The position numbers and the translations under genes are program-made. A stretch of 64,000 nucleotides of DNA from a phage. The notes below the pieces were generated by a model that saw only the letters and a list, made by a program, of their open reading frames with translations, ran no database searches and was not told where the DNA came from. Within the stretch, counting starts at the first letter, position 1, and every line of letters starts with the position of its first letter. The stretch lies in the sequence record PZ445450.1; one strand, given 5' to 3'. Shown here piece by piece: positions 514-18,604 of the stretch.

Positions 514-1200
514 ATGGCAGAGATTAAGTCGGATGTTAACCACATCCACACTCTGCCAGATTTTGTTCAGGGAGGTCTTGACTACCTGCCTGGAGATTTT
601 CTGGCTGAGAAGGTTAATTTAGTCACATTCTTAACCGTGTACCTTAAAAGGTTGGAGGATGTTGATAAGATGCTGGTAGGTTTGGCTGAAGGAAGATTGC
701 TTAACAATGCCAGCGGAAGATACCTTGACGAAGTTGGTAATCAACTTGGTATTCTTAGAAATGGACTTTCAGATGCTGATTTTCGTGCCACACTAATTAT
801 TCAGCAGGCCGCAGCATCAAGGGGCGGGACTCGCGAAGATGTCATCTCTACCTTGCGACAATTGTTCGGAAGAGACAATTTCGATACGTGGAAAGGAGAC
901 AACTTCAGGTTTGACATAAACATTAGAAAAACCTGCTTTGACATACTGCAGTCTATCGACCAGATCTTAGATATGCTACCATTGCCTTGTCATTTGCGTC
1001 TTACAGAATCGCAAGGGCAAGCTTTTGGTTTTGAAGGGGACTCCACAGCTCTTGGCTTCGGATCAGTATGGGAAGAAAACCAGTTCGGAGTTGGGGGGCT
1101 GGCTACTTTGCTGTATGTTCCTGACGTAAGACCTGATTGGGACACCACGACCATTTATTGTGAAAGTATTACAGTAAACGCAACTAGACAGGAGGGTTAA
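514..1200 (+). CDS. Putative small baseplate/tail protein
   Basis: 228-aa ORF packed between structural genes; N-terminal LPDFVQG..YLPGDF motif; function by position. Confidence 0.4.
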   Translation: MAEIKSDVNHIHTLPDFVQGGLDYLPGDFLAEKVNLVTFLTVYLKRLEDVDKMLVGLAEGRLLNNASGRYLDEVGNQLGILRNGLSDADFRATLIIQQAAASRGGTREDVISTLRQLFGRDNFDTWKGDNFRFDINIRKTCFDILQSIDQILDMLPLPCHLRLTESQGQAFGFEGDSTALGFGSVWEENQFGVGGLATLLYVPDVRPDWDTTTIYCESITVNATRQEG

Positions 1201-3272
1201 TGGCAACAGCTGTTTTTAAACCTTACCGTGATTACTCTACAATGGCTGCACAGTTTCATTACCGAACAGTTCAGGATACTGCCGTTCCTGGTAGGGATTA
1301 TAATCATGTTGAGGGCGATGTAACTATCCCAATTGGGGCAACCAGTATTGAGATCCCCGTGGAAATTGTTGACAAATTACCCAACAGGTTGCCAAGAAGC
1401 TTCTTTATGGAGTTTTCATCAAAATCTCAAGGGGTGATGATTGGAACACAAAGGGCGAAATGTACAATAGTTTCAGATGAGAATCTTGACAGGATATCTT
1501 GGGACACTGTTGAGGAGAGAATGTTTCACCCAAGGTATTGGGTTACAACTACTCAGCAGACTGAAAGTACCTGTATTGTTGCAGATAACAACTGTTGTAT
1601 TAACCGTTTAGTGTCAAGAACATATGGAGGTATGGCTGGGTGCATTTGGGAAACAGTTGACAAGTATGACCATTTCGGTATTGGGTTTGATGATCACTAT
1701 GAGATGAGAAACACCAAGCTTTGGTTCAGAATGTCAATAACCAATGCCAGCAACTTCTCCACTCCTGAAAAGATGATTATGACTGTAGACCTTGTTGATG
1801 GCACAATCATCTATGTTCCTTTAGCTCAATATGCTGTCAGCATCTCAGAGGACAAGAATGTTGCAGAAATTCATATTGATTTTGAGGACTGCGTCGGGAT
1901 GGACCAGAACAACAACATGATGGGTGTTGATCCTCGGCAGGTGAGAAGGATTTTAATACCGCTCATGCCTAAAGACTGGGTAAGTAATAGCACAGACCCG
2001 AGAACGGAAAATGTAGAGTGTGAGTTGCGCCTAGATCTGCTCCAGCCAGACACAGGCTGGAAAATGATGCAACTTAACAATATTCAGGTTAAAGAGCACG
2101 ATGTTGGGATCTGCACCGCATATGACGATATGTGGAACGTGTCTCCTTTAAGGGTGTTGAACAATATCAAGCGTCTGGGCTATACCGGAACCATAAACCA
2201 TTATGTTGGTATGAGTCATTATTATGACTACACATGGTCAGGAACCCAATGGTCTATAAACAGAACAGGAGCGCTAAACGCTGCAGCTTATAAATGGCAT
2301 GATGATTTTATGTACAATGCCAAACGACATAACTTCGACGTTATGCAATCTGTAAGTTTTGAGCTTTTCAGCGACGCCTGCCCGTTGGAATGGACCCAAA
2401 GAGACTGGAACGATAACTACGCTAAAACAGGGTATACACCTTGTAGCTACCTCCTGTCTCCAACCATTGAAGAGGGTATGAATTTCCTTACTGCAGTATT
2501 TAAGAATTTTGCATCAGCCGCTATGAGAAACAACCTGCCAGTGATTATGCAGGTTGGTGAACCGTGGTGGTGGTACAATACCGATACTCGTAGACCTTGT
2601 ATTTATGATTACCCTACAAAACAGGCGTTTTATGATGAGACAGGCGAGTATGCATTAGATATTGGGACTATTGACGATCCTAAAACTGGCGGTGTTTACG
2701 ACAAGTATGTAGCATTTTGTCGTGGTAAGCTTGGCGCTCGTATTGCGGCTATTTCAAAGGCAATAAAAGCACACGCTGCATCAGCTCAGATGACAGCTTT
2801 GCTGTTTTTCCCAACCATTATGGAAACCGAGCTTACGCAAAAGCTGAACCTTGCTGACCAATATAAAAAGGAAGCAGGTGCTCTTGATTTCTTCTGCACT
2901 GAGTGCTACGATTGGGTGATGCAGGGAGGTATTGAAAAGGCAAAAGAGTCTGTAAACATACCTATCGTTAAGTTAGGTTGGCAACCGTCTGAAATACAAT
3001 ACCTTGCAGGGTTCGTTCCTAGCAAAGAGCTTGCTCCGGTATATGGCTACGACCCAACTAGGAATTACCAAGAATTTTTATGGAGATGTATTTGCGGAAA
3101 CATGGCAACCATAGAGTATAGATACCCTGAGGTAAAACAGTATGTGTGGGCATACCCGCAAGTAATGTCTGACAGCATCACTGTTACCGCTAGAGATTCT
3201 ACCGTGCTTCATATGGGGCAGGTTGCTCTGAAAGGGTATGTAGAAGATGTTGTCCCGCCAGACTTCTCATAA
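1200..3272 (+). CDS. Putative tail/baseplate structural protein (690 aa)
   Basis: Long ORF, start shares a base with upstream stop (translational coupling), immediately upstream of tail fibre genes. Confidence 0.45.
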   Translation: MATAVFKPYRDYSTMAAQFHYRTVQDTAVPGRDYNHVEGDVTIPIGATSIEIPVEIVDKLPNRLPRSFFMEFSSKSQGVMIGTQRAKCTIVSDENLDRISWDTVEERMFHPRYWVTTTQQTESTCIVADNNCCINRLVSRTYGGMAGCIWETVDKYDHFGIGFDDHYEMRNTKLWFRMSITNASNFSTPEKMIMTVDLVDGTIIYVPLAQYAVSISEDKNVAEIHIDFEDCVGMDQNNNMMGVDPRQVRRILIPLMPKDWVSNSTDPRTENVECELRLDLLQPDTGWKMMQLNNIQVKEHDVGICTAYDDMWNVSPLRVLNNIKRLGYTGTINHYVGMSHYYDYTWSGTQWSINRTGALNAAAYKWHDDFMYNAKRHNFDVMQSVSFELFSDACPLEWTQRDWNDNYAKTGYTPCSYLLSPTIEEGMNFLTAVFKNFASAAMRNNLPVIMQVGEPWWWYNTDTRRPCIYDYPTKQAFYDETGEYALDIGTIDDPKTGGVYDKYVAFCRGKLGARIAAISKAIKAHAASAQMTALLFFPTIMETELTQKLNLADQYKKEAGALDFFCTECYDWVMQGGIEKAKESVNIPIVKLGWQPSEIQYLAGFVPSKELAPVYGYDPTRNYQEFLWRCICGNMATIEYRYPEVKQYVWAYPQVMSDSITVTARDSTVLHMGQVALKGYVEDVVPPDFS

Positions 3273-3284
3273 TCAGGAGATAAA

Positions 3285-4325
3285 ATGTCAAAACCTAGTT
3301 TTCCATTAGAGATTTGGGCAGAGGAGGATCAGGTTCTGCCTAACACCCACAGACAGAACAGGCTACGCCCGATTGATGATTTGTGGAGAAAAGGTTGGGA
3401 TCTTGGTCAAAAGCCCTCATGCGAAGAGCTTAACTATATTTTCAATATGCTCGGGACTTGGGCAAAATACATTGCTGACGAGCAGATTCCCGCTCAAGAA
3501 GGCCGTTATCTGGTACGTGATAATAACTTGAGTGATCTTTTGAACATTCCTGTTGCCCGTAGAAACCTTGGGATTATTACTAAGGAAGAGGCAGACGCCA
3601 GGTATGTAAAAGTTACAGGTGATACAATGACAGGCCCATTGGGTTTGCAACGTATCAACTTTAAAGCTGCCGAGACAGATAAGGCTTGGATAGAGACAAC
3701 TATTGGCCCAGATAAGACAACTCTCGACTTTGGGTTAAGTGATAATTTTGGGTCGTTTGATGATGGTGGCACATCTACAATAGATGCGTTTCGTTGGAGA
3801 TTCCAGCCAACTCAGCCGGATATTAATCCAGAGTTCACTTTGATGTACCTTAACGCGATCACGGCTAACCGTGCGCTGTTGAAAGTGGTAGGCAATGTTG
3901 AAGTTGTCGATAACATGAGGTGCAATAACCTTACTATCAGCAATACAGCAACATTCACCAACTGTAATGTGGCTAGTCAGTTGACGGCTGGGTCAGTATA
4001 TGTTAATGGTGGTGCAAGTTGTGACAGTATGGTTGTAAGAAGCCAGCACTGTGTTGTCGGTAACAGAAATGTGGTGCGCTCCGTGAATGGAGTGACGGCT
4101 AACGGTAACGGTGATGTAACGATCACTATCCCGCAGACAGGTGTGCAAGACATCAGAATCGGTGCAAGACTTGTGGACGGCGTTTCTGAATCTCCAATCC
4201 GCAACGGCTACGTTGTCACAGGCTGGCATTTCGGTGACAAAAAAGAGATGCGTGGTTCAACCTACTGGGCAGGACCTTTACAAAAACTTGTAAATGGTCA
4301 ATGGATCACTGTTAATTATGCATAG
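3285..4325 (+). CDS. Tail fibre protein, paralog A
   Basis: RBS AGGAGA before ATG; N-terminus PLEIWAEEDQV.. and C-terminus LVNGQWITVNYA shared with the 5340-6383 paralog; followed by a Tfa chaperone gene. Confidence 0.65.
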   Translation: MSKPSFPLEIWAEEDQVLPNTHRQNRLRPIDDLWRKGWDLGQKPSCEELNYIFNMLGTWAKYIADEQIPAQEGRYLVRDNNLSDLLNIPVARRNLGIITKEEADARYVKVTGDTMTGPLGLQRINFKAAETDKAWIETTIGPDKTTLDFGLSDNFGSFDDGGTSTIDAFRWRFQPTQPDINPEFTLMYLNAITANRALLKVVGNVEVVDNMRCNNLTISNTATFTNCNVASQLTAGSVYVNGGASCDSMVVRSQHCVVGNRNVVRSVNGVTANGNGDVTITIPQTGVQDIRIGARLVDGVSESPIRNGYVVTGWHFGDKKEMRGSTYWAGPLQKLVNGQWITVNYA

Positions 4326-4339
4326 ATCGGAGGACTAGC

Positions 4340-4924
4340 ATGAAAATACTTCAAGAGTTTAAACTTTACCAACCGGGATCTGGCGAATACCACTCCAACA
4401 AGGAAACCAAGGAGCTGACCCCTCAAGAGGTCGAGGATTACACCGCATACACTGGGTATTTTTTACGTAATGATGATGGTGATTGGTATGTGCAGTCACG
4501 AACATTACGACAAGAAAATCCAGGGTGTATCTTCCTACTTGTTGACGAGAAGGGAATTCTTAAGACATCTACAGAAGAACCTGATGCCTTATGGCCTGCT
4601 CCAGGTCTTCGTGTGGTTATCGCCAAAAAAGAAGAGGTACCAGAAAACATTATGCTTCACCACGACGCTTTGCGTTTAGTTGGTGATGAATTTGTCACAG
4701 ACAATGAATTCTTTGTTCAACAGGCAGAGGGTGTCATAGAGACAGAACTTGCTTGGGCTACTGCTAGAATTGGTGCCTATCAAGACATGATTGACCTTGA
4801 ATATGATCTTACTGATGACCAGAAACGTAACATCAGAGATTTGAAAATGTACAGGGTAAAACTTCTTGAAATAGATACATCTAAAGCCCCTGACATTTTC
4901 TTCCCGGAGCGACCTACCCTCTAA
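4340..4924 (+). CDS. Tail fibre assembly chaperone (Tfa family)
   Basis: C-terminal MYRVKLLEIDTSKAPDIFFPERP matches the conserved Tfa signature (W.KYRV.L..VDTS.APDI.WP); sits directly after a fibre gene; RBS GGAGGA. Confidence 0.7.
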   Translation: MKILQEFKLYQPGSGEYHSNKETKELTPQEVEDYTAYTGYFLRNDDGDWYVQSRTLRQENPGCIFLLVDEKGILKTSTEEPDALWPAPGLRVVIAKKEEVPENIMLHHDALRLVGDEFVTDNEFFVQQAEGVIETELAWATARIGAYQDMIDLEYDLTDDQKRNIRDLKMYRVKLLEIDTSKAPDIFFPERPTL

Positions 4925-5295: not shown

Positions 5296-5339
5296 TAAAG
5301 TGTTAAAATAGTCCTAAGGAATTTTCTCAGGAGAACGTG

Positions 5340-6383
5340 ATGACTAAACCAGTTATCCCTCTTGATATTTGGGCCAATCAGGATGTTGTGCTTGAAAATA
5401 CGGGAGAGTTGAATAAATCTCAACCAAAAAAAGAAGAGAGATTGAAAGGTTGGGATATGACACAAAGAATGGCATGTGAAGTTGTTAACTTTGAACTTCA
5501 CATGCTTTCTGCGTGGTTGAAGCATTTAACAGAAGATGTTGTCCCAGGATGGGATAATAGATTCTTAAGGGTCACTAATAATCTAGCAGACGTTCCAGAC
5601 AAAGCTGCTGCACGTCAAGTTCTCAATGTATACTCACCTGAAGAAATGGACGATCTATATGTTGACAAGTCTGGAGACATAATGACTCAGACTCAAACTT
5701 TAGGTCTTCAAAGAATCGAGTTTGCATCTGCGTCAACAGACAGTGCGGCAATATATACCACCATAACTCCAGACAAGACGACGATGGATTTCTGGATTAT
5801 GGACAACATCGGTGGTGCTGACGGCACAGACCTTGATGATCCTTCTCACCAAATAGATGGGTTCCGTTGGAGATTTCAACCTTCTGGTGGGCAGCCTGTG
5901 TTTTCAGCTATGAAGCTCAATGCTATAACTGCCAACCGTGCAAGACTGGCTATCCAAGGAAATCTTGAATGCAACGATGCAAAAAGTTCCTCTGCAAATG
6001 CCAATGCGGTCACGATACCAAGAGCCACTGTTAATGGACAACAATCCTGCGGAAGCGCTCAAATAGGTGGAAGAGTTGATTGTAACGATGAAACCGTCAG
6101 GGGCCAATATGCAACAGTTGGTGGAAGAAACGTGGTCCGCAGGGTAAATGGTAACGGCGCAGACAGTAGCGGTAACCTTACTATCCCTATGCCTAGCAGA
6201 GGGGTTGATGATGTAAGGATAGCAAACCGTTTTAAAACCACCTACAGAGAGTCAAGAGTCTACCCTGGACATGTGATGTGCTCTGGTAACTACGCTTATA
6301 AACACCCTTATCAAGGTGATTACTGGACAGGTGCTATCCAAAAACTTGTAAATGGTCAATGGATCACTATATCTTATGCTTAA
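5340..6383 (+). CDS. Tail fibre protein, paralog B
   Basis: ATG at 5340 after AGGAGA (track start 5337 is GTG); N-terminus PLDIWANQD.. and C-terminus LVNGQWITISYA conserved with paralog A, middle divergent. Confidence 0.65.
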   Translation: MTKPVIPLDIWANQDVVLENTGELNKSQPKKEERLKGWDMTQRMACEVVNFELHMLSAWLKHLTEDVVPGWDNRFLRVTNNLADVPDKAAARQVLNVYSPEEMDDLYVDKSGDIMTQTQTLGLQRIEFASASTDSAAIYTTITPDKTTMDFWIMDNIGGADGTDLDDPSHQIDGFRWRFQPSGGQPVFSAMKLNAITANRARLAIQGNLECNDAKSSSANANAVTIPRATVNGQQSCGSAQIGGRVDCNDETVRGQYATVGGRNVVRRVNGNGADSSGNLTIPMPSRGVDDVRIANRFKTTYRESRVYPGHVMCSGNYAYKHPYQGDYWTGAIQKLVNGQWITISYA

Positions 6384-6670: not shown

Positions 6671-8416
6671 ATGGCGCAAGACATGACAAGCTTTGAGCAG
6701 GCGGTAGATCAAGTAATTGTTGATTCTGAACGTTTGCACCTGATTGTCAACGGTAACGCTGTGGATGAAGTTGTCGTAGAGGATGGGACCACCATCCCTA
6801 CGGTACGAAAAGCCATGCTTGACACCCTTTATTTTAAAACGCCACCGATCCCTTGGGCGTATGGTGCATCCACAACAGTTTTTAACCAGCTGTACGAGTT
6901 TAAAGGGGACACAGGCCCTCAGTGGTGGTACGCTCCCGCAGCATCAAAATCTAACCCGGTTAGAATGCCAGCAGATCCTTCACAATCCCCAAACTGGAGA
7001 TTATATACCGATTCTGCAGTAATGGCAAAATACTACGCAAAACTTAACAGTCCGAGGTTCGAAGGTGACCCGCGAGTACCTACGCCTCCAATGGACGACA
7101 AATCCGAGTCTATAGCAAACACAGAGTTTGTTGTTGACTATGTGGATAGCATATTTGAAGCCATGGAGGGAATGAAAGTTACTGTAGGGTCTTTGGTGGT
7201 AAAAGGTCTTACAGAACTTGCTAACACTATAGTTGGTGGCACACTCACCTTACATGGGCCTGTTAATGGAGCAGATTCTACTGCACGCTTCAGGAACCTA
7301 ATCCTCACGGCAAATACTTCTACACTTACTTTTGCGTGGAGTGATCCTAAGCATGCAGACTGGAGAAGCACAGAGCTGCAACCTCATGAAGTGTCCACCC
7401 ACAGGGTTATAGCTGACACTATAACTTCTGGGAAACCAGTGGCTAATAATAACGATGTGCATTTTGATGGTCTAGGTAATAACTTTTTTGACTACGTGTA
7501 CATTCGTGGTAATGCCATGAAGGCAGCAACCGAACCGACATTGCAGGTAGATGGAACCACCAGGGTTAAGAACCTTGAGGTGACAGGCACTGTTACAGGG
7601 ATAACCTACTCTGTCGATGGCACCATGATTTACCCTAGCTATATTGAAAGCACGGGGGACGCATTAATAAATGGTGATTTAGAAGTTGGCGGATCTGTAG
7701 TTATTCGAGGTACAGCCTCTATCCAAAACATAGCTCTGAATACCCTAAGAGTCAATGAGCGTGCAACTTTTGAAGGGGAAGGGCTTACAGCCAACAAAGG
7801 TGTAATTACCGAGCTGACAACCACTACTTTAACTGCAACAACTGCAAACTCTGAAAACTGCAACGTTACCAGAAACTTGCAGGTAAATGGAGATGTTAGT
7901 TTAAACGCAGCAGGGACGGGCACCACCTACCTTCACAACCTTGAAATATCCGGCACAGTGACTGGGTGGCTGCCAGACTTCTCTAATGTCAACTTTGTTT
8001 GTAATGGCATTAACTCCAGCGGCAAGATAACCACCTCTCAAGAAATTGAGGCGGGTAAAACCATTACTGCCCCTACTTTCCACGCAGGAAAGGTAGATTT
8101 TGATTTAGAGGAGGTTGACGCGTCCAGTGGGACATGGACACCTAACGGGCAGGCCAGTATGTATGTTGTCCACGCGAAAGGGGATTTTACAATAGGACAA
8201 TGGCCTGGTACATCAGCGGAAGATAAACCTTATCCATTCACTGCGGTTATCTATGTCATTCAGGATGCTGTAGGTCACAACGTGACTTTGCACGATAAGT
8301 ATGCTATCCTGTCGGCAACGCCTGTTATTAATAACAAGGCTAATAGTGTTACCTTGCTGCAATTAACATATTGTGGTGTTGGTGATATCGTAGACGTAGT
8401 AATTGCACAACGTTAA
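6671..8416 (+). CDS. Tail fibre protein with conserved phage fibre motif
   Basis: RBS AAGGAGA; contains LNSPRFEGDPRVPTPPMDDKSESIANTEFV, the conserved SP.F.G.P..PT...IANT.FV fibre motif seen in T4/P2/lambda fibres. Confidence 0.7.
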   Translation: MAQDMTSFEQAVDQVIVDSERLHLIVNGNAVDEVVVEDGTTIPTVRKAMLDTLYFKTPPIPWAYGASTTVFNQLYEFKGDTGPQWWYAPAASKSNPVRMPADPSQSPNWRLYTDSAVMAKYYAKLNSPRFEGDPRVPTPPMDDKSESIANTEFVVDYVDSIFEAMEGMKVTVGSLVVKGLTELANTIVGGTLTLHGPVNGADSTARFRNLILTANTSTLTFAWSDPKHADWRSTELQPHEVSTHRVIADTITSGKPVANNNDVHFDGLGNNFFDYVYIRGNAMKAATEPTLQVDGTTRVKNLEVTGTVTGITYSVDGTMIYPSYIESTGDALINGDLEVGGSVVIRGTASIQNIALNTLRVNERATFEGEGLTANKGVITELTTTTLTATTANSENCNVTRNLQVNGDVSLNAAGTGTTYLHNLEISGTVTGWLPDFSNVNFVCNGINSSGKITTSQEIEAGKTITAPTFHAGKVDFDLEEVDASSGTWTPNGQASMYVVHAKGDFTIGQWPGTSAEDKPYPFTAVIYVIQDAVGHNVTLHDKYAILSATPVINNKANSVTLLQLTYCGVGDIVDVVIAQR

Positions 8417-8425
8417 TATATATCT

Positions 8426-8455
8426 AACCGCTCCTGACGGGGCGGTTTTCTTATC
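8426..8455 (+). terminator. Rho-independent terminator
   Basis: Stem AACCGCTCC/GGGGCGGTT with TGAC loop, followed by TTCTTATCT. Confidence 0.55.
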
Positions 8456-8466
8456 TGGAGAACACA

Positions 8467-11400
8467 ATGCTTCCAATCCCTTTGCTAAAACTTGGTCGTC
8501 ATTTCCTCGATAAGAGAGGTGGAATTAAGGAACTTGCTGTTCTGTCATACCCAATAGACAACAGTGATGGTACAAGCAACACAGTATCCTATGTAAATAG
8601 CTTAGCTATACTTTTTGATGATGGTCAACTTAATATCACGGGCTATAACAGGTTCGGAGAGTGCCGCACTGGGGATCTTGACACGATAAACTATCCCAAC
8701 GAGGCTGCCTGGAACGTTGATCATGTGTGGAGAGCAGACCGTGCGTTTGTGATCCGAACTTTTGATAACCAGTTTTTCTACATCGGCTGCACTGCAGGGC
8801 TTATTGGGTCTGATGCTGCAGGCGGTAATGATGTTTGTGTAAGAGAGTGGACACCTCTTCCTGAACAGATCGTTAAAGGATTGCACCTTGACACCCACCC
8901 AGAGCGCCTTATTGAGGTGATGGGTGGTATTAACAACACTGTCTGGGTTATTGCAGAGGCAGAAGGCACTGGCATACTTAACCTGTATGGGTCTGGTAAC
9001 AACACCTACGGATCTTTGCATGTAGATAAAAATCAGCATGCAACCCCTGTAAAGATTGGTGAGACATCGGAAAATCCTGAAACAGGCCCTTGGAAAAACC
9101 CAAGCATCAACTGCGAGGTGCATGACAACTCTGTTATTTTCGGTGGTCCTAGGGGTTTCTGGATTGCTGGATACGACTTTCTGAGAAATAACAGTAGAAA
9201 CGACCTTGTTTGGCCTCCTGTGCAGATCACTCGTAACGATTTGAGGGGCATTCCTGCAGATGAGGAGTGGAAAGGGTTTATGTGTGGTCCTAACGGGGCA
9301 ATAATTGCCACACAGAGGATGCATAGACCCGATGACCAGCAGCTTGTTAACGTATTCTACGGGCAAGACGTTTGGGGAGATGACACATGGCGTTCCTTAA
9401 ATATCACCTACACCCATGAGGTAATAATGGCTCGTGGGTACGGCACAAGTGGCATTTTCTTCAATAATGGCACTAAGCAGTATCGTGGATTCTCTCGCAA
9501 CTTGTGTAATGATATTGGCGCACAATCTGCAAACAATAGCCCTAGGGCCAATTTTATCCACTATCAAGCTCTTGCTACAGCTAAATATGTTGAGCAACGC
9601 CTGCCAGTTAGCTGGACAGAGAGTGTTTATTTCCAAGGCATCCACAGGGAAGGTTTCTTAGGAACCTTTACTGTTGTTAATGGTAAACTTTGGTGGTCAG
9701 GCATCCCAAGGGGGAGTTTTGCAGGCTCTAACAACCTGTTTGGCGGCAGACTTAATAGTCAGGGGTTCACAGAGGTTCCTGAGAATTGGTATAAAAATGT
9801 CCCAGTAGACAGTTGGGGTGTTGATGATATTTTCGACGTTAACGGTGTTAGCAGCGTTAGCAATATTTACATTGGTGACACGGTCAAGATGAAATTGAAG
9901 CCTCAGCCAGAAGGGGCTACGTTCATTATTGACAAGATTGAACTGGTAAATGCTGCAGGCACGGTTGTTACAGATGCAAATTACCAATTCTCCACCAACT
10001 GGAACCACGGCGGGGCCAATGAAGTTGTTGTTACCCAGTATAACAGAAATGTTAACAGACGTGGCCTGTACTCTGTAAAAATAACTTATCATGACAAGCA
10101 TGGCACAGGCAGAACCCATACGACAAGGACTTTGAACTGGAACACCATAGTTCCTGCGTATCCGTCTAACGGCAAGTGGCATACCGTTGGTAGAAACAAG
10201 CAGTTCCATGTTAACGATACTGTATACTTTGGGCTGAATGGTACTCAGCCTGCAGTAGAAGGTGATACATCATATATGGTCCGACTCCACAGAATGGATG
10301 CTGGATCAGTCACTTACGATGTTACCCAAGAGATTTATGATCAGAGAAGAAATACCTACAACAACTTGGTGCAGACACAGGCCGTATGGGAGTTCAACCC
10401 TAACGGCAGAGGTGGTAAAATGTTGCAGGTTAACGAGCAAAACGGAACGTCGTTAACTGTCCACGAACACCCAGACCCTTGGCCTGATCCTGGAAAACCT
10501 CACCCAGGCGCTCGTACGCTGAAAATTGTCAGCCATGATGTAGGATATTTCGGAATACGCTGGGAAGCTACAGTAAGGTATGCCGACGGGACAACAAACA
10601 ACATAGGGATTACACTTGGTGGCACCAGTGAAGATAACTCGCTGAAAATTGCCTACACTCCTAGAGGTATATCTATTGACAATATGGATGTTGTTCGCAA
10701 TGGTTACGGCGATGTGAATGTCAAAGTTACTCTTGGCGAACATCTTGGTGGGGAAAGGATCATCATGTATGCTTTTGATCATGACCCGCGTACCAACGGA
10801 ACTTATGCAAATCAGGCATGGAGTTACCTGATAAATGCACCTGGGCCGAATACTAAAGAGTTCTACTACGGCATGAAGCGAGATGTGTGCAAGAAAACAG
10901 GAACACATGACTGGATTGCTATCTGCGTTAAAGATGAGCGCACAGCTTGGGATGAGCCTGTTAACAGATGGTTCATAGGTATTCCTACCAGAAGTGATAA
11001 GTATGTCGCAGAATATATTGTATGCATGGGCGGTACCAACCTGAACATGTGTTGGAACGAGGATGCAAACAAATACTCTGATTATGACTATATGAGGGAC
11101 TACTCTTGTAATCAGTGGTTTAACCAATCAACAGGATACCCTCCACGTCAGGCGAGAGTAAACCCTGCAATCTTCACAGATACGCAGGTTTTCTTGACAA
11201 AACAGGCCAACGAGGTTCAGACCTTCAAGAATAAATACGATCCTAACAAGTGGTTCTACAACTGTTACGGCGCATTTTTCTGGGGACCTGGTGAGTTACC
11301 TGGTGGAGGATCTTGCTTGAATGAGGCAACTTACGCCAGTGACTACATCATGGGGCAGGTCAAGAAGTATAAGATAATCCCCGGTCCTGAGACTCTGGGC

Positions 11401-14094
11401 AATGCCGTTGACCCTTATATCATCATGACTGCACTGAGATCAAACATGGACGGGACATCCATGTCTATGCAAATTCCGGTAACAAACGGGTACAAACGTG
11501 TTGTGATGATCATTAAGTGCGACTTAATAGGTAAACAAGTTCTTGCAGAAAACGGGACATCCACACATCCTTTTGAGATTGCTCTGCACTATCAGTTTGC
11601 TGACTCGCCTTTTGCAGGTGATAAGGGAATATCTGATACAGATGCACAGCGTTGTAAGAAAGTATTGTTGGGTGCAGGTTGGTGGTGGTATGAGTTTGAT
11701 TTAACAGACAAATTCACCGACACATCTAAAGTTGTAACAGGACTTCGTCTAGACCTTGGCGAGAACATGCACAAAGCTGTTTGTGATGGCACCTATGGTG
11801 ACCCTACAATATACCTAAAATATATTTCTTTTGAGCATCCGGAAGATGTTGTCTATGGTCCAAAACTGAGATTGTTTGGCAGTTGGATTGCAAAAGATAG
11901 GGTAGGCATGGGTAAGAAGGTAAGAGGGTTCTTGGTTGATGCAGGAACAGAAGACATGCTGGTTAATGCAGTATGGCCTGAATTACCTGGGACTCAGTGG
12001 GACAACTCAGCCAAATCTATAAACTGGTTTAACATTCATAGGGCCATGTGGACCACTAACTGCTACTTGTGGAGAGAGCTTAACGATCAGGCCTTTGGAT
12101 TCAGCGATGGTAGAAGGATGGCGATCATTTGCTGGACAACACTGCAAAGATGTTATGACCATGACTATGAGATTGGGGGCAGGGCATGGAAAAATATCAG
12201 GGATAGAATCATAACCAATTTTGCAGACGACAACGGTGGTGGAGCACATAACTTTGGCACAAGCCGACTCATCCATTTGAACGGATCCTCAGCCTACAAG
12301 AAAGAAGGTTACTCTGGGTCTATGATCGAGTGGGGTCTGGTGAAAGATGCTCGCGTATTGATGGGCCAGCAACTTGCTGCCGCAATAGGTCCCAGCGCAG
12401 TGCAGTCGGTTAAACCAGCGTGGTTCGATATTCCATTGTGGTCACCCGGAACACCGGGAACTGCTGCAATCAACCCTACCACTGGGGATCTAGAAATCTC
12501 CTGGGAGGACTTGAAGCAGGTCGGTGGTTGGGACAAAACAGGGTATCAGGTTCAGTGGTGGAGGGCTGATGGATCTTTAGCCGCTGATGAGTTTGTTAAG
12601 GACAATTTCTACACTATGTCCTCTGCAAAAGCACAGCAATTATTTGGTCAGGCAACTCCGTCAACGATCACCATGTCTATGTGCTGTAAAGACAACAGGA
12701 CTGGAGCTTTGGGGCCAAGGGTTGCTAAAGTTTTCTCAGGTATTAAATGGAATCTACCTGTCCAAAGTATTTCATGGAAGCAAATAGGTGATAACAAGCT
12801 GCTGGTTACCCCTGCCTGTCAGTTCAACGCAACTCTTAACGTTGATCCTGCTGTTGCGGCAAACTCAGCTAAAGCTTCTGACTTCTCTGTGTCTAACACT
12901 GCTATGGCAGATGTGAGGAAGATTGACACGCTGAACGCCAGAATTACCTGTAAAAACACTTATGGCACATTCCAGATCATCAACAACTTCACAGATGCTG
13001 ATTCTAAGGTAGTGAGGACAGCAAGCCAGACTTTGAGTTTAGGAACTCTGGCCTATGCGGCCCTGATCACTGAACAGTCGGCAACACTCCAAGGAGGTGG
13101 TGTAGGCAAGTCCATTACAACACCTGTGTGGAAGCCAAATGAGTGGGTTGTGTTTGATTTGACTGTGGACTTCTCCAGCGATAATAACTGGACATGGGTA
13201 AGGAATTGTTTGTCACAGTTGATGGGCGGTCCAAGCTCCGTTAGTGATAGTCACGACTCTACTGACCCGAGTGTGTTCCAGGTAGGTAAAACTCACCCAG
13301 AGACTGGAGAAACGTTGCCTGACAGGAAGTATGCGTTGGTTTGCATCTCTTACGGGAAGGCAGATGTCACCTTCTCAGGGACACACACTTATAACGGAAC
13401 CTACAATTTCTCAAGGAAGTATAGTCTCAAAGCAGGGAACATTATAGACGAGGTTGGTGCACTGTATAATCCTGGCAACGGCATAGGGATTGTGGGTGGT
13501 CAACTGCAGATGCAGGAACCTTCTATTACCCCTTCCAACGTATCTGGGATTAGAAAGACTTGGGAAAGTAGCAATACCAACATTGCAACAGTGGATGCTA
13601 CCACAGGACTGGTAACATTTAAAGCTACTGGGAATGTCACCATAAAGTTTGTAGTTACAGATGATGCAGGCCGCAAAACGTCCTCAACATCATTCACTGT
13701 CAAACAGATGGCACCTCAGTGGTTTATTTGGGAAGGAAATCCTCTTGACGGGGCCTACCCTAGACCTGCAGGAACGTCTAATATGAGGGTCTTTACCGGT
13801 CCGGTAATGAACAATCCGACCACAACCACCAACCCTACATTTTTTGGTGCTTACATACCTGAAATTATTGGCCTACCAAGGAACCAGATACAACTGCTTT
13901 TCGGAGCAGGTGTTGATGGTCTAGCCACTTTTGGGTACAGTGACAACATTGATGCAGCCAGAAGCTCGGGTTGGATTGGATTTAAGTTTCAGTGGAACCC
14001 TGGTGGTAGAACATTAGGTATTGCAAGCATAGGTGTTATGCTACCTGGTAACCAGCAATACCATCTCGAAGCTTATACAAACTTCCCTAGTTAA
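8467..14094 (+). CDS. Giant tail-associated protein (1875 aa) with Ig-like Big_2 domain; putative adhesin/host-specificity protein
   Basis: Uninterrupted 5.6-kb ORF with RBS; near C-terminus SNVSGIRKTWESSNTNIATVDATTGLVTFKATGNVTIKFVVTDDAGRKTSSTSFTV fits the Big_2 pattern. Confidence 0.6.
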   Translation: MLPIPLLKLGRHFLDKRGGIKELAVLSYPIDNSDGTSNTVSYVNSLAILFDDGQLNITGYNRFGECRTGDLDTINYPNEAAWNVDHVWRADRAFVIRTFDNQFFYIGCTAGLIGSDAAGGNDVCVREWTPLPEQIVKGLHLDTHPERLIEVMGGINNTVWVIAEAEGTGILNLYGSGNNTYGSLHVDKNQHATPVKIGETSENPETGPWKNPSINCEVHDNSVIFGGPRGFWIAGYDFLRNNSRNDLVWPPVQITRNDLRGIPADEEWKGFMCGPNGAIIATQRMHRPDDQQLVNVFYGQDVWGDDTWRSLNITYTHEVIMARGYGTSGIFFNNGTKQYRGFSRNLCNDIGAQSANNSPRANFIHYQALATAKYVEQRLPVSWTESVYFQGIHREGFLGTFTVVNGKLWWSGIPRGSFAGSNNLFGGRLNSQGFTEVPENWYKNVPVDSWGVDDIFDVNGVSSVSNIYIGDTVKMKLKPQPEGATFIIDKIELVNAAGTVVTDANYQFSTNWNHGGANEVVVTQYNRNVNRRGLYSVKITYHDKHGTGRTHTTRTLNWNTIVPAYPSNGKWHTVGRNKQFHVNDTVYFGLNGTQPAVEGDTSYMVRLHRMDAGSVTYDVTQEIYDQRRNTYNNLVQTQAVWEFNPNGRGGKMLQVNEQNGTSLTVHEHPDPWPDPGKPHPGARTLKIVSHDVGYFGIRWEATVRYADGTTNNIGITLGGTSEDNSLKIAYTPRGISIDNMDVVRNGYGDVNVKVTLGEHLGGERIIMYAFDHDPRTNGTYANQAWSYLINAPGPNTKEFYYGMKRDVCKKTGTHDWIAICVKDERTAWDEPVNRWFIGIPTRSDKYVAEYIVCMGGTNLNMCWNEDANKYSDYDYMRDYSCNQWFNQSTGYPPRQARVNPAIFTDTQVFLTKQANEVQTFKNKYDPNKWFYNCYGAFFWGPGELPGGGSCLNEATYASDYIMGQVKKYKIIPGPETLGNAVDPYIIMTALRSNMDGTSMSMQIPVTNGYKRVVMIIKCDLIGKQVLAENGTSTHPFEIALHYQFADSPFAGDKGISDTDAQRCKKVLLGAGWWWYEFDLTDKFTDTSKVVTGLRLDLGENMHKAVCDGTYGDPTIYLKYISFEHPEDVVYGPKLRLFGSWIAKDRVGMGKKVRGFLVDAGTEDMLVNAVWPELPGTQWDNSAKSINWFNIHRAMWTTNCYLWRELNDQAFGFSDGRRMAIICWTTLQRCYDHDYEIGGRAWKNIRDRIITNFADDNGGGAHNFGTSRLIHLNGSSAYKKEGYSGSMIEWGLVKDARVLMGQQLAAAIGPSAVQSVKPAWFDIPLWSPGTPGTAAINPTTGDLEISWEDLKQVGGWDKTGYQVQWWRADGSLAADEFVKDNFYTMSSAKAQQLFGQATPSTITMSMCCKDNRTGALGPRVAKVFSGIKWNLPVQSISWKQIGDNKLLVTPACQFNATLNVDPAVAANSAKASDFSVSNTAMADVRKIDTLNARITCKNTYGTFQIINNFTDADSKVVRTASQTLSLGTLAYAALITEQSATLQGGGVGKSITTPVWKPNEWVVFDLTVDFSSDNNWTWVRNCLSQLMGGPSSVSDSHDSTDPSVFQVGKTHPETGETLPDRKYALVCISYGKADVTFSGTHTYNGTYNFSRKYSLKAGNIIDEVGALYNPGNGIGIVGGQLQMQEPSITPSNVSGIRKTWESSNTNIATVDATTGLVTFKATGNVTIKFVVTDDAGRKTSSTSFTVKQMAPQWFIWEGNPLDGAYPRPAGTSNMRVFTGPVMNNPTTTTNPTFFGAYIPEIIGLPRNQIQLLFGAGVDGLATFGYSDNIDAARSSGWIGFKFQWNPGGRTLGIASIGVMLPGNQQYHLEAYTNFPS

Positions 14095-14105: not shown

Positions 14106-14138
14106 TAAAAAAGGGGCCAAACGGCCCCTTTCTTTTTA
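14106..14138. terminator. Bidirectional rho-independent terminator between convergent genes
   Basis: Stem AAGGGGCC/GGCCCCTT with AAAC loop, flanked by A-run upstream and T-run downstream. Confidence 0.75.
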
Positions 14139-17814: not shown

Positions 17815-18078
17815 TCAGAAACCCTCTAAAAAGCTCTTGTAGAAAACAATCTCAGTATCCACACCAGTCACAATCTTGTCGTTCCTGATTTCATCGGTAA
17901 GATAGGTGTCAAAACGCAGAACCTGTGTGGTGTTGTCACACATCCACTCAGCTGTGACCATTGCGAAAATCTTAGCATCTTCATTATCTGGTGTGAATGT
18001 TACCACCTCACCGCACTTAAACTTTTCGATAGGCTGAGTGTTAGCTTTCGGTTCTGCGATAGTGATTTTTGTGGTCAT
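17815..18078 (-). CDS. Small protein, tandem paralog 1 of 3
   Basis: Exactly 264 nt like its two neighbours; shared pattern PGTVV / CGEVV ... ILGE. Confidence 0.5.
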   Translation of the reverse strand: MTTKITIAEPKANTQPIEKFKCGEVVTFTPDNEDAKIFAMVTAEWMCDNTTQVLRFDTYLTDEIRNDKIVTGVDTEIVFYKSFLEGF

Positions 18079-18341
18079 TATTCTCCTCCTTCTTTTGAAT
18101 AGCTTGTCTCTCCAAGGATGGTAATTTTGGTGTCAAGCTCTGTAACTTTCATGTTTGGCGGCAGATCGTACAACTCATTATTTTCTAAATCGAACCCCCA
18201 CACACAATGTTCTCCTGTTTTGACAATCATAACTATGTTTTGAATGCCGTCTCCGTCGCAACTTACCACGGTCCCACACGGAAAACTGTCTGCACGCTTT
18301 TTGTTCTTCACCTTAGAATTGAATACAATGCTGGTAGCCAT
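18078..18341 (-). CDS. Small protein, tandem paralog 2 of 3
   Basis: 264-nt ORF; start/stop overlap with neighbours; conserved CGTVV..IVMIVK..ILGE. Confidence 0.5.
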   Translation of the reverse strand: MATSIVFNSKVKNKKRADSFPCGTVVSCDGDGIQNIVMIVKTGEHCVWGFDLENNELYDLPPNMKVTELDTKITILGETSYSKEGGE

Positions 18342-18604
18342 TATTGTTCCTCCACCATAACTTCGCCAAGAATTTCTATGCAGGCATCCATTTCTGTAAC
18401 AACCAAACTGTGAGGTAGTTCTACAAACACCTTTCTGAACAGATCAAATACCCCAACATATATGTTTGCAGGATGTGATTTTACAACAAGTGCTGTATTC
18501 ACATCCCCAAGTTCATCAACAAACATCACCACAGTGCCTGGAGCTACTGAGGACAGATACTTCTTAGTTTTACGGTTTGATGCAAATTTTAACTCTGTTG
18601 CCAT
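18341..18604 (-). CDS. Small protein, tandem paralog 3 of 3
   Basis: 264-nt ORF; conserved PGTVV..ALVVK..ILGE. Confidence 0.5.
   Translation of the reverse strand: MATELKFASNRKTKKYLSSVAPGTVVMFVDELGDVNTALVVKSHPANIYVGVFDLFRKVFVELPHSLVVTEMDACIEILGEVMVEEQ

What the first reader, a model, noticed from the sequence alone, without database searches (positions are those of the whole stretch)
8467..14094. 1875-aa giant protein with Big_2 Ig-like domain at the end of the tail-fibre cluster
An uninterrupted 5.6-kb ORF with a C-terminal Ig-like fold is unusually large for a fibre-module gene. It may be a multidomain adhesin or tailspike-like receptor-binding protein carrying carbohydrate-binding or enzymatic domains.
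Basis: partly seen in the sequence, partly recalled or inferred. Interest (0 to 1): 0.5.

Follow-up and report, generated by a model that had tools for sequence, protein, structure and literature searches.

The report
Giant accessory adhesin-like phage tail protein
The 5.6-kb gene is real: it is the rV5 gp27 orthologue of an rV5-like coliphage and encodes a 208-kDa chain of a propeller, sugar-binding-like and antibody-like domains that looks like an optional "sticky arm" rather than a classical tail fibre; lab strains can lose it, yet it is tightly conserved in nature.

Summary
ORF 8467-14094 (+) encodes 1875 aa, carries a significant Big_2 domain at aa 1677-1733, and is the last gene of the baseplate/tail-fibre module of a Vequintavirus (rV5-like) E. 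coli myophage. It is the orthologue of rV5 gp27 and BASEL bas54_0041.

More than 100 phage genomes carry it, and dN/dS is about 0.06 in every domain.

It does not look like a canonical trimeric fibre or a beta-helix tailspike. The best-supported architecture is:
- an N-terminal RCC1-like propeller, whose first ~200 aa are shared with shorter syntenic "propeller + Big_2" proteins of Phapecoctavirus and Seunavirus;
- Ig-like domain(s);
- a ~550-aa orphan region with no homologue outside the family in 1.84 billion representative proteins, containing a CBM-like beta-jelly-roll;
- an FN3 domain;
- 3-4 Ig-like domains;
- a dimorphic ~115-aa tip.

Published transposon data show that bas54_0041 is dispensable on E. 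coli K-12. I found five independent null alleles in deposited genomes. Virion mass-spectrometry evidence is weak.

Most likely it is a low-copy, non-essential, glycan-binding accessory adhesin. An enzymatic role for the orphan domain is neither shown nor excluded. I rate it a new variant of a known kind, of moderate interest.

The parts
8426..8447 (+). Terminator-like GC-rich hairpin plus U-tract between the stop of the upstream fibre gene (8416) and the start of this gene
   Evidence: Scan hit with 9 pairs, 6 of them GC; sequence. A hairpin plus T-tract sits at the same position with a different stem sequence in Bas52, in the 40%-identity homologue locus L006 and in Phapecoctavirus ZCKP1. That it is a read-through attenuator is an inference.
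8458..8461 (+). Shine-Dalgarno GGAG, 6 nt upstream of the ATG
   Evidence: Read directly from the sequence
8467..14094 (+). Complete ORF, 1875 aa, 208 kDa, pI 6.2; orthologue of rV5 gp27, bas52_0040 and bas54_0041
8467..9801 (+). aa 1-445: the most conserved region. Probable RCC1-like beta-propeller with a strictly conserved N-terminal M-x-P-I-P motif. The first ~200 aa are shared across genera.
9802..10761 (+). aa 446-765: beta-rich region with at least one Ig-like sandwich (aa ~450-560)
   Evidence: AF2 pLDDT is 65-82 for aa 450-560 and low beyond that. Homologues give weak Bact_surface_Ig-like hits at aa ~506-560.
10762..12426 (+). aa 766-1320: orphan central region. It is Trp-rich, with 16 invariant Trp and conserved acidic and His residues. 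The flanks 766-935 and 1126-1320 were modelled with low confidence; aa 837-935 and 1126-1320 came out helical.
   Evidence: Exhaustive phmmer of aa 760-1440 against 1.84 billion representatives found only family members in this stretch. Profile searches of the 5.8-billion-sequence database and of PDB found nothing. Trp content is 4-5%. dN/dS is 0.05-0.06.
11272..11841 (+). aa ~936-1125: beta-sandwich (jelly-roll) with a CBM-like fold, embedded in the orphan region; it exists in two divergent allele types in the wider family
12427..12756 (+). aa ~1321-1430: fibronectin type III module
   Evidence: The only non-family hits of the exhaustive search (E 4e-8 to 2e-4) fall on aa ~1320-1390 and lie on or beside fn3 repeats of the target proteins. 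AF2 beta-sandwich with pLDDT 60-78.
12757..13746 (+). aa ~1431-1760: string of 3-4 Ig-like domains, including Big_2 at aa 1677-1733 (nt 13495-13665)
13747..14091 (+). aa ~1761-1875: C-terminal beta-domain (the tip), dimorphic within the genus
   Evidence: tblastn with aa 1750-1875 hits Vequintavirus only. 37 records are at least 95% identical and 76 records are 61-63% identical. AF2 pLDDT 50-70.
14107..14134 (.). Bidirectional intrinsic-terminator-like hairpin ending the fibre operon and the convergent minus-strand genes
   Evidence: Scan hits on both strands; sequence; also present in Bas52, L006 and ZCKP1.

Best explanation
The gene encodes a large, non-essential, probably low-copy accessory adhesin of the virion, most likely attached at the tail or baseplate periphery. 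It is not a classical trimeric fibre. Proposed mechanism, all steps inferred: (1) the conserved N-terminal ~200 aa and RCC1-like propeller dock the protein to the particle; (2) a semi-flexible stalk of Ig-like and FN3 beta-sandwiches projects the distal modules; (3) the CBM-like jelly-roll with its Trp-rich orphan domain, the Ig-like domains and the dimorphic C-terminal tip make weak, multivalent, reversible contacts with surface or environmental glycans such as capsule, O-antigen, ECA/NGR or mucus. This would raise adsorption on natural hosts, whereas rough K-12 in the laboratory does not need it. Shown here or in the literature: the gene is real and under strong purifying selection; its position and domain content; its dispensability on K-12. 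Inferred: virion location, stoichiometry, monomeric state and glycan binding.
For: Position and synteny: it is the last gene of the fibre module here, in the 40%-identity homologue, in Phapecoctavirus and in Seunavirus.
Modular pattern: an N-terminal module shared across genera is joined to distal parts that range from 2xBig_2 (~570 aa) to this 1875-aa version.
Adhesin-type content: Big_2, FN3, Ig strings and a CBM-like fold.
No fibrous or trimerisation motifs were found.
Dispensability: the HIDEN-SEQ preprint (10.1101/2025.11.20.689424) reports that bas54_0041 tolerates disruptive insertions on K-12, and bas54_0041 is the orthologue. I also found five independent null alleles: nomine W82*, magaca Y617*, phita32 Q1439*, naswa -1 nt and EPFV3 -10 nt.
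Constraint in nature: dN/dS is 0.04-0.07 in all domains, and mosaic dS of 0-1.44 shows recombination between alleles.
Allelic variation: a dimorphic tip and two types in the sandwich region.
Low abundance: rV5 virion MS gave 3 peptides and 3.1% coverage, and a positionally conserved terminator-like hairpin lies directly upstream.
Cryo-EM of Bas54 and Bas49 located only three of the nine annotated fibres near the baseplate (PMC12143355).
Against: Virion association is weakly supported. The three rV5 peptides are semi- or non-tryptic with low scores, and the non-structural gp1 (660 aa; rIIA by the BASEL annotation) scores similarly.
No structural study has located the protein.
The AF2 models are poor, with mean pLDDT 45 and 54 from alignments of 16-17 sequences, so the 'no fibrous fold' and 'CBM-like' statements rest on partial models.
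Glycan binding is untested.
Within the closest BASEL orthologues the C-terminal third is nearly invariant, while the propeller and central region vary. This is not the textbook 'conserved N-terminus, variable receptor-binding C-terminus' picture at short evolutionary range.
The conserved Trp- and acid-rich orphan domain could be catalytic rather than merely adhesive.
Confidence: 0.5

Rival explanations
1. It is a canonical lateral tail fibre subunit, as in the BASEL annotation 'lateral tail fiber protein with intimin domain'. On this view it is a homotrimeric fibre or the distal receptor-binding subunit of one of the three lateral fibre sets, and it determines host range on particular strains.
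For: It lies in the fibre gene cluster and is annotated as such. PMC8594841 lists it (rV5 gp27) as the last large lateral fibre gene, with moderate allelic variation. HIDEN-SEQ reports that some Bas54 fibre genes are conditionally essential on clinical isolates. The rV5 paper mentions thin ~70-nm fibres that are occasionally seen.
Against: No coiled coil, triple beta-helix, beta-helix, knob repeats, chaperone domain or adjacent assembly chaperone was found. RCC1-like propellers and Ig/FN3 strings are typically monomeric folds (established knowledge). The protein has not been located in Bas54, Bas49 or phi92 maps. The text of the preprint does not say that bas54_0041 itself is conditionally essential.
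Confidence: 0.15
2. It is primarily an enzyme. On this view the orphan aa 766-1320 region is a new-fold glycan-active catalytic domain (depolymerase, esterase or lyase) with an embedded CBM, flanked by FN3 and Big_2 linkers as in multimodular bacterial CAZymes, and it strips a surface polysaccharide.
For: A CBM-like jelly-roll sits inside a highly conserved region with 4-5% Trp, invariant acidic and His residues (E1162-D1163, H1191-R1192, E1235, E1280, E1288) and dN/dS ~0.05. The order CBM, then FN3, then Big_2 recalls multimodular glycoside hydrolases (established knowledge). Neighbouring fibre genes of these phages carry glycosidase or deacetylase domains.
Against: There is no detectable similarity to any catalytic family by sequence, profile or fold. 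The putative catalytic part is modelled with pLDDT 20-30. Conserved Trp and acidic residues are equally compatible with a binding or purely structural domain.
Confidence: 0.17
3. It is a virion decoration located elsewhere, on the capsid, neck or whiskers, in the manner of Hoc. It would mediate adherence to mucus or the environment rather than host recognition.
For: The C-terminal Ig region matches phrog_215 'structural protein with Ig domain', category head and packaging, at E 2e-29. Ig-like domains on dispensable decoration proteins are well known (T4 Hoc; established knowledge). It is dispensable in the lab yet constrained in nature.
Against: The gene sits in the baseplate/fibre module, not the head module, and its syntenic homologues are annotated as tail proteins. 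There is no evidence for capsid binding.
Confidence: 0.1
4. It is not a virion component. It would be a late-expressed protein acting in the infected cell or released at lysis, for example as a decoy, a biofilm or matrix binder, or a factor excluding superinfecting phages.
For: The MS signal in virions is at the same level as for non-structural proteins. It has not been seen in cryo-EM maps. It is dispensable for infective virion formation.
Against: It is co-oriented with and immediately follows structural genes without its own evident strong promoter. The adhesin-like modules and the N-terminal module shared with proteins annotated as 'tail protein' fit a particle-bound role better.
Confidence: 0.08

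Closest known systems
rV5 gp27, BASEL bas5x_0040/0041 ('lateral tail fiber protein with intimin domain'), PHROG 15684
   Same: Direct orthologues, 90-98% aa identity, same length and position.
   Different: None in kind. The function of this family has not been established experimentally beyond dispensability on K-12.
Syntenic 'tail protein' phrog_11922 of Phapecoctavirus (ZCKP1 gp122, 888 aa) and Seunavirus (PVP-SE1 gp40, GEC_vB_MG gp041c, ~570 aa)
   Same: Last gene of the fibre module. The N-terminal ~200 aa are homologous (41% identity; hhalign 99.3%), including the M-x-P-I-P start and RCC1-type repeats, and Big_2 domains follow.
   Different: These proteins are 2-3 times shorter. They lack the orphan 550-aa region, the CBM-like sandwich, the FN3 module and the tip. 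Homology is not detectable beyond aa ~200, apart from a short stretch at aa 393-440.
Ig-like-domain-bearing phage structural proteins (T4 Hoc, lambda gpV C-terminal domain, T5 pb6, N4 gp65)
   Different: In those proteins the Ig domains are add-ons to capsid, tube or sheath proteins. Here they form the stalk of a separate 208-kDa protein that also has a propeller and an orphan domain.
Intimin/invasin-type bacterial adhesins
   Different: Similarity is limited to a single Ig domain. There is no outer-membrane beta-barrel or LysM, and no C-type-lectin-like D3 domain was shown. The 'intimin domain' label over-states the relationship.
Multimodular bacterial carbohydrate-active enzymes and binders (CBM + FN3 + Big_2 arrays)
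   Different: No sequence similarity to any CBM family, no recognisable catalytic module, and binding is untested.
RCC1-like domain (RLD) seven-bladed propellers (RCC1, RCC2, HERC2 RLD, Kti13)
   Different: The query itself is sub-threshold (E 0.057). Only about three blades are supported by homology, and the model is of low confidence. I found no description of an RCC1-like N-terminal module on a phage tail-module protein in the held literature; one four-term search returned one unrelated paper.

Membership tests
Vequintavirus gp27 family (PHROG 15684) | Full-length sequence match to the family profile | tested here: met
   phrog_15684 matches aa 1-1874 to profile positions 1-1877 of 1878 with E 0. 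Protein identity to >100 Vequintavirus orthologues is 90-98%.
Vequintavirus gp27 family (PHROG 15684) | Conserved genomic position: last gene of the baseplate/fibre module, before the strand switch | tested here: met
Big_2 (PF02368) domain-containing proteins | Score above the Pfam gathering threshold | tested here: met
   34.1 bits against 22.8; 38.8 bits when the C-terminal segment is scanned alone
RCC1-like domain propellers | RCC1 repeats above the Pfam threshold in the protein itself | tested here: not met
   Only RCC1_2 at E 0.057, 13.7 bits against 22
RCC1-like domain propellers | Homology to proteins that do pass the threshold, and an RLD-like fold | tested here: inconclusive
Canonical trimeric phage tail fibres (T4 gp34-37, gp12, Mu/P2 gpS/gpH types) | Fibrous trimeric folds: coiled coil, triple beta-helix, beta-helical shaft, knob repeats | tested here: not met
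   No such Pfam, PHROG or PDB matches. AF2 secondary structure shows globular beta-sandwiches and no long helices in confident parts. Caveat: the models are of low confidence.
Canonical trimeric phage tail fibres | Dedicated assembly chaperone or C-terminal intramolecular chaperone | tested here: not met
   The only chaperone gene (4340-4924) accompanies the short tail fibres. No peptidase S74 or chaperone domain is present.
Canonical trimeric phage tail fibres | Demonstrated location on the baseplate and a role in adsorption | not testable with these tools
   The literature gives weak MS detection, no localisation by cryo-EM and dispensability on K-12.
Tailspike depolymerases | Right-handed parallel beta-helix or another known glycan-degrading catalytic domain | tested here: not met
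Intimin/invasin adhesins | N-terminal outer-membrane beta-barrel, with or without LysM, plus a Big-domain array plus a C-type-lectin-like tip | tested here: not met
   Only one Ig domain resembles intimin (E 0.004). No barrel or LysM family was detected.
Carbohydrate-binding modules (CAZy CBM beta-sandwich families) | Beta-jelly-roll fold | tested here: inconclusive
Carbohydrate-binding modules (CAZy CBM beta-sandwich families) | Sequence membership in a CBM family, and demonstrated carbohydrate binding | tested here: not met
   No Pfam or PDB sequence similarity. Binding cannot be tested here.
Hoc-like dispensable Ig-domain decoration proteins | Non-essential virion protein made of Ig-like domains | tested here: inconclusive
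   Ig-like modules are present and non-essentiality is reported. Capsid binding and virion presence are not established, and most of the protein is not Ig-like.

The most novel reading that the evidence does not exclude
The RCC1-propeller-anchored protein family that ends the fibre module in Vequintavirus, Phapecoctavirus and Seunavirus may be a distinct, non-fibrous class of phage host-interaction appendage. In Vequintavirus its ~550-aa orphan region may be a new-fold glycan-processing enzyme with an embedded CBM. Such an appendage would have escaped structural assignment so far because screens look for fibre-like trimers.
Probability: 0.15. Interest if true: 0.65.

Novelty: new variant of a known kind. 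Interest (0 to 1): 0.4.

Why it matters
rV5-like phages are candidates for therapy and biocontrol, valued for their broad host range, which is attributed to a "Swiss-army-knife" set of fibres whose gene-to-structure assignment is still incomplete.

This is the largest protein of the phage. It is kept under strong purifying selection, yet it is lost repeatedly in laboratory stocks. That pattern predicts a function that matters only on natural hosts or in the gut, such as binding to capsule, O-antigen or mucus.

Knowing what it binds, or cleaves, would inform host-range engineering. It also suggests that phage stocks should be checked for null alleles after passage on K-12.

The 550-aa domain has no relatives outside the family in 1.84 billion representative proteins. 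It is a clean target for structure determination.

Tried and rejected
1. Structure prediction in two segments with the 16-17-sequence family alignment gave only partial models (mean pLDDT 45 and 54).
2. Deepening the alignments failed. A word-indexed search with aa 1-460 returned only fragments. The profile of the central region found nothing new. Exhaustive phmmer of aa 760-1440 found only the family plus fn3 noise.
3. PDB sequence and profile searches found only marginal Ig-like hits.
4. Foldseek on the C-terminal segment is dominated by generic Ig strings and is uninformative about the central domain.
5. An internal-repeat test for seven blades by hhalign was not significant.
6. I considered phi92 genes 152/153 as a split copy and rejected it: gp152 matches only the 2xBig_2 part and no propeller is present.
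7. A suppressor tRNA that could rescue the amber alleles: no tRNA gene lies in the window. The rest of the genome was not examined.
8. Virion proteomes of relatives: the PVP-SE1 paper is not held, a Phapecoctavirus proteome search was unproductive, and the O177 phage 'proteomics' paper is in silico only.
9. The RBPseg paper's main text does not mention this protein by name, and its supplements are not held.
10. phiTE cryo-EM: no mention of a propeller protein or of this family in the paper's text.
Full report
OBSERVATION

A GGAG Shine-Dalgarno lies 6 nt upstream. The product is 208 kDa with pI 6.2. Pfam finds one significant domain, Big_2, at aa 1677-1733 (E 2.6e-8, above the gathering cutoff). 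The Ig-like domain is therefore near the C-terminus but not at it.

The upstream + strand genes are a baseplate protein, a 690-aa lateral fibre protein, two short-tail-fibre paralogues with their chaperone, and a 581-aa fibre protein. Immediately downstream the coding strand and GC skew switch. 'End of the tail-fibre cluster' is therefore correct.

IDENTITY

The window is from a Vequintavirus (rV5-like) E. coli myophage.
- The gene matches 121 phage records by megablast. 107 of them cover at least 80% of it. The best listed is RudolfGeigy/Bas52 at 96.2% nt.
- The protein matches PHROG 15684 ('unknown function') end to end.
- Depositors call it 'hypothetical', 'Ig-like domain protein' or, in the BASEL collection, 'lateral tail fiber protein with intimin domain'.
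- It is the orthologue of rV5 gp27 (1878 aa, 208,334 Da) and of bas54_0041 in MaxBurger/Bas54.
- Full-length relatives in cultured phages are confined to the genus, at 90% aa identity or more. Metagenomic assemblies add homologues down to 40% identity, only 15 clusters in all. The most divergent one sits in a fully syntenic locus.

IS IT A REAL, FUNCTIONAL GENE?

Yes. Against six orthologues, dN/dS is 0.04-0.07 in every domain, including regions with no known homologues. dS jumps between ~0 and 1.44 along the same pair, which shows recombination between diverged alleles (identity mosaic).

ARCHITECTURE

(a) aa 1-445 is the most conserved part: 70-80% identity is kept even in the 40% homologue.
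- Its first ~200 aa are homologous to the N-terminus of shorter proteins that occupy the same last-gene position. These are ZCKP1 gp122 (888 aa) in Phapecoctavirus and PVP-SE1 gp40-like proteins (~570 aa) in Seunavirus.
- The supporting numbers are BLASTP 41% identity with E 1e-27, and hhalign 99.3% with E 3e-20.
- Those homologues pass Pfam's RCC1 threshold and hit the RCC1-like-domain model. The query alone is sub-threshold.
- I therefore call it a probable RCC1-like propeller. About three blades are supported by homology. The rest is inferred from motif recurrence, and an internal-repeat test was not significant.

(b) aa ~450-560 is an Ig-like sandwich (pLDDT 65-82). aa 560-765 is beta-rich but unreliable.

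(c) aa 766-1320 is an orphan region.
- Exhaustive phmmer against 1.84 billion representatives found only the family in this stretch.
- Profile searches of the 5.8-billion-sequence database and of PDB found nothing.
- The region is Trp-rich, with 16 invariant Trp and invariant acidic and His residues.

(d) aa ~1321-1430 is an FN3 module.

(f) aa ~1761-1875 is a small beta-domain found only in this genus, in two alleles: 37 records at 95% identity or more, and 76 records at 61-63%.

Nothing resembling a coiled coil, triple beta-helix, beta-helix tailspike, known depolymerase or intramolecular chaperone was detected by any method.

EXPRESSION CONTEXT

A GC-rich hairpin followed by a T-tract lies between the upstream fibre gene's stop (8416) and this ATG. 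An equivalent hairpin with a different stem sequence occupies the same position in Bas52, in the 40% homologue locus and in Phapecoctavirus. A bidirectional terminator follows the gene. I infer that expression occurs by terminator read-through at a lower level than the upstream fibre genes. This is not shown.

EXPERIMENTAL EVIDENCE FROM THE LITERATURE

- rV5 virion MS lists gp27 with 3 semi- or non-tryptic peptides, 9 spectra and 3.1% coverage. That is the same tier as gp1, a 660-aa protein (rIIA by the BASEL annotation), so the evidence for virion presence is weak (PMC3606486 Table S5).
- The BASEL paper treats gp27 as the last large lateral fibre gene, with moderate allelic variation. It stresses that which genes build which fibres is unclear (PMC8594841).
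- Cryo-EM of Bas54 and Bas49 located only three of nine annotated fibres (PMC12143355).
- The 2026 phi92 structure left fibre II unassigned (PMC13450770). phi92 itself lacks the propeller module.
- The HIDEN-SEQ preprint reports that bas54_0041 tolerates disruptive transposon insertions. It is therefore dispensable for infecting K-12 and for forming infective virions. The preprint also reports that some fibre genes become conditionally essential on clinical isolates, without naming this gene in the text.

NEW SUPPORTING OBSERVATION

Five deposited genomes carry independent null alleles: nomine TGG>TAG at codon 82, magaca TAC>TAG at codon 617, phita32 CAA>TAA at codon 1439, naswa with a 1-nt deletion, and EPFV3 with a 10-nt deletion. 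Three of them (nomine, magaca, naswa) list K-12 MG1655 as host. The substitutions are unlikely to be sequencing artefacts.

INTERPRETATION

The combination to explain is: strong constraint in nature; repeated loss and dispensability in the laboratory; adhesin-type modules (Ig, FN3, CBM-like); an N-terminal module conserved across genera with variable distal parts; no fibrous trimer features; and low apparent abundance.

The best explanation is a low-copy, non-essential accessory adhesin anchored to the particle by its N-terminal propeller, which uses distal glycan-binding modules for reversible attachment to polysaccharides of natural hosts or their habitat (confidence ~0.5).

Rivals:
- a canonical trimeric lateral fibre subunit (0.15);
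- a primarily enzymatic role of the orphan domain (0.17);
- a decoration located on the head or neck (0.1);
- a non-virion protein (0.08).

One observation does not fit the textbook receptor-binding-protein pattern. Among close BASEL relatives the C-terminal third is nearly invariant, while propeller blades 2-5 and the central region are the mosaic parts. At larger distances the C-terminal 450 aa diverge most.

COMPARISON AND NOVELTY

The gene is already catalogued (rV5 gp27, PHROG 15684). Ig-domain-bearing phage structural proteins and accessory receptor-binding proteins are known kinds. I found no description in the literature held here of the following:
- the architecture itself: an RCC1-like N-terminal module shared by the last gene of the fibre module in three genera, and a 550-aa orphan domain with an embedded CBM-like sandwich;
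- the set of natural null alleles.

The 'intimin domain' label reflects a single Ig domain and should not be read as family membership.

I rate it a new variant of a known kind, with interest 0.4. The most novel reading not excluded is a distinct non-fibrous appendage class carrying a new-fold glycan enzyme. I give that a probability of ~0.15.

Noticed in passing
Orthologues of window 8467-14094 in MN850649, MN850612, PQ758395, MN850595 and PV435126 (loci L007, L010, L008, L011, L009): Five deposited Vequintavirus genomes carry independent disruptions of this gene: nonsense codons at positions 82, 617 and 1439, a 1-nt deletion and a 10-nt deletion. Annotators split the gene into two 'hypothetical proteins'. 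Three of the five list K-12 MG1655 as host.
   Followed up: yes
window 8426-8447; L001 ~11960-11990; L006 ~9970-9995; L005 ~8965-8990: A terminator-like hairpin plus T-tract immediately upstream of the gene is conserved in position, with a different stem sequence, across Vequintavirus, a 40%-identity relative and Phapecoctavirus. This suggests regulated read-through into the last fibre-module gene.
   Followed up: partly
GenBank MG0656xx records (e.g. MG065661, MG065635, MG065690) hit by window 8467-14094: Fifteen or sixteen records named 'Campylobacter phage' with host C. jejuni carry this gene at 92-100% aa identity in genomes of 128-143 kb. The host or organism labels look doubtful.
   Followed up: no
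window 17815-18604 (- strand): Three head-to-tail 87-aa ORFs with abutting or overlapping start and stop codons are distant paralogues (20-37% pairwise identity). All are annotated as hypothetical in Bas52.
   Followed up: partly
L015 11321-12983 (phi92 genes 152 and 153): At the syntenic end of its fibre cluster, phi92 has only a 203-aa protein equivalent to the 2xBig_2 part of the Phapecoctavirus and Seunavirus proteins, without the RCC1-like N-terminal module. It is followed by a 296-aa ORF flagged as having no RBS.
   Followed up: partly
window 1200-3272 and 6671-8416 (via L006 gene calls): In the syntenic locus L006, the counterparts of the two neighbouring fibre genes carry recently defined Pfam families: NCTSP_N plus TIM-barrel_NCTSP (N4 gp65-like) and Phage_phiTE_241_N/C. 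This links the module to the N4 and phiTE structural work.
   Followed up: no
P0001 (closest 93% cluster of the query protein): The precomputed annotation lists an extra Pfam accession, PF26918, that did not appear among the hits when the query protein was scanned against the local Pfam copy. Its identity and position were not determined.
   Followed up: no
window 3285-4325 and 5337-6383: Two paralogous short-tail-fibre genes (phrog_4465) flank a single chaperone gene. The rV5 paper reports 42% identity between them and suggests they recognise two LPS chemotypes.
   Followed up: no
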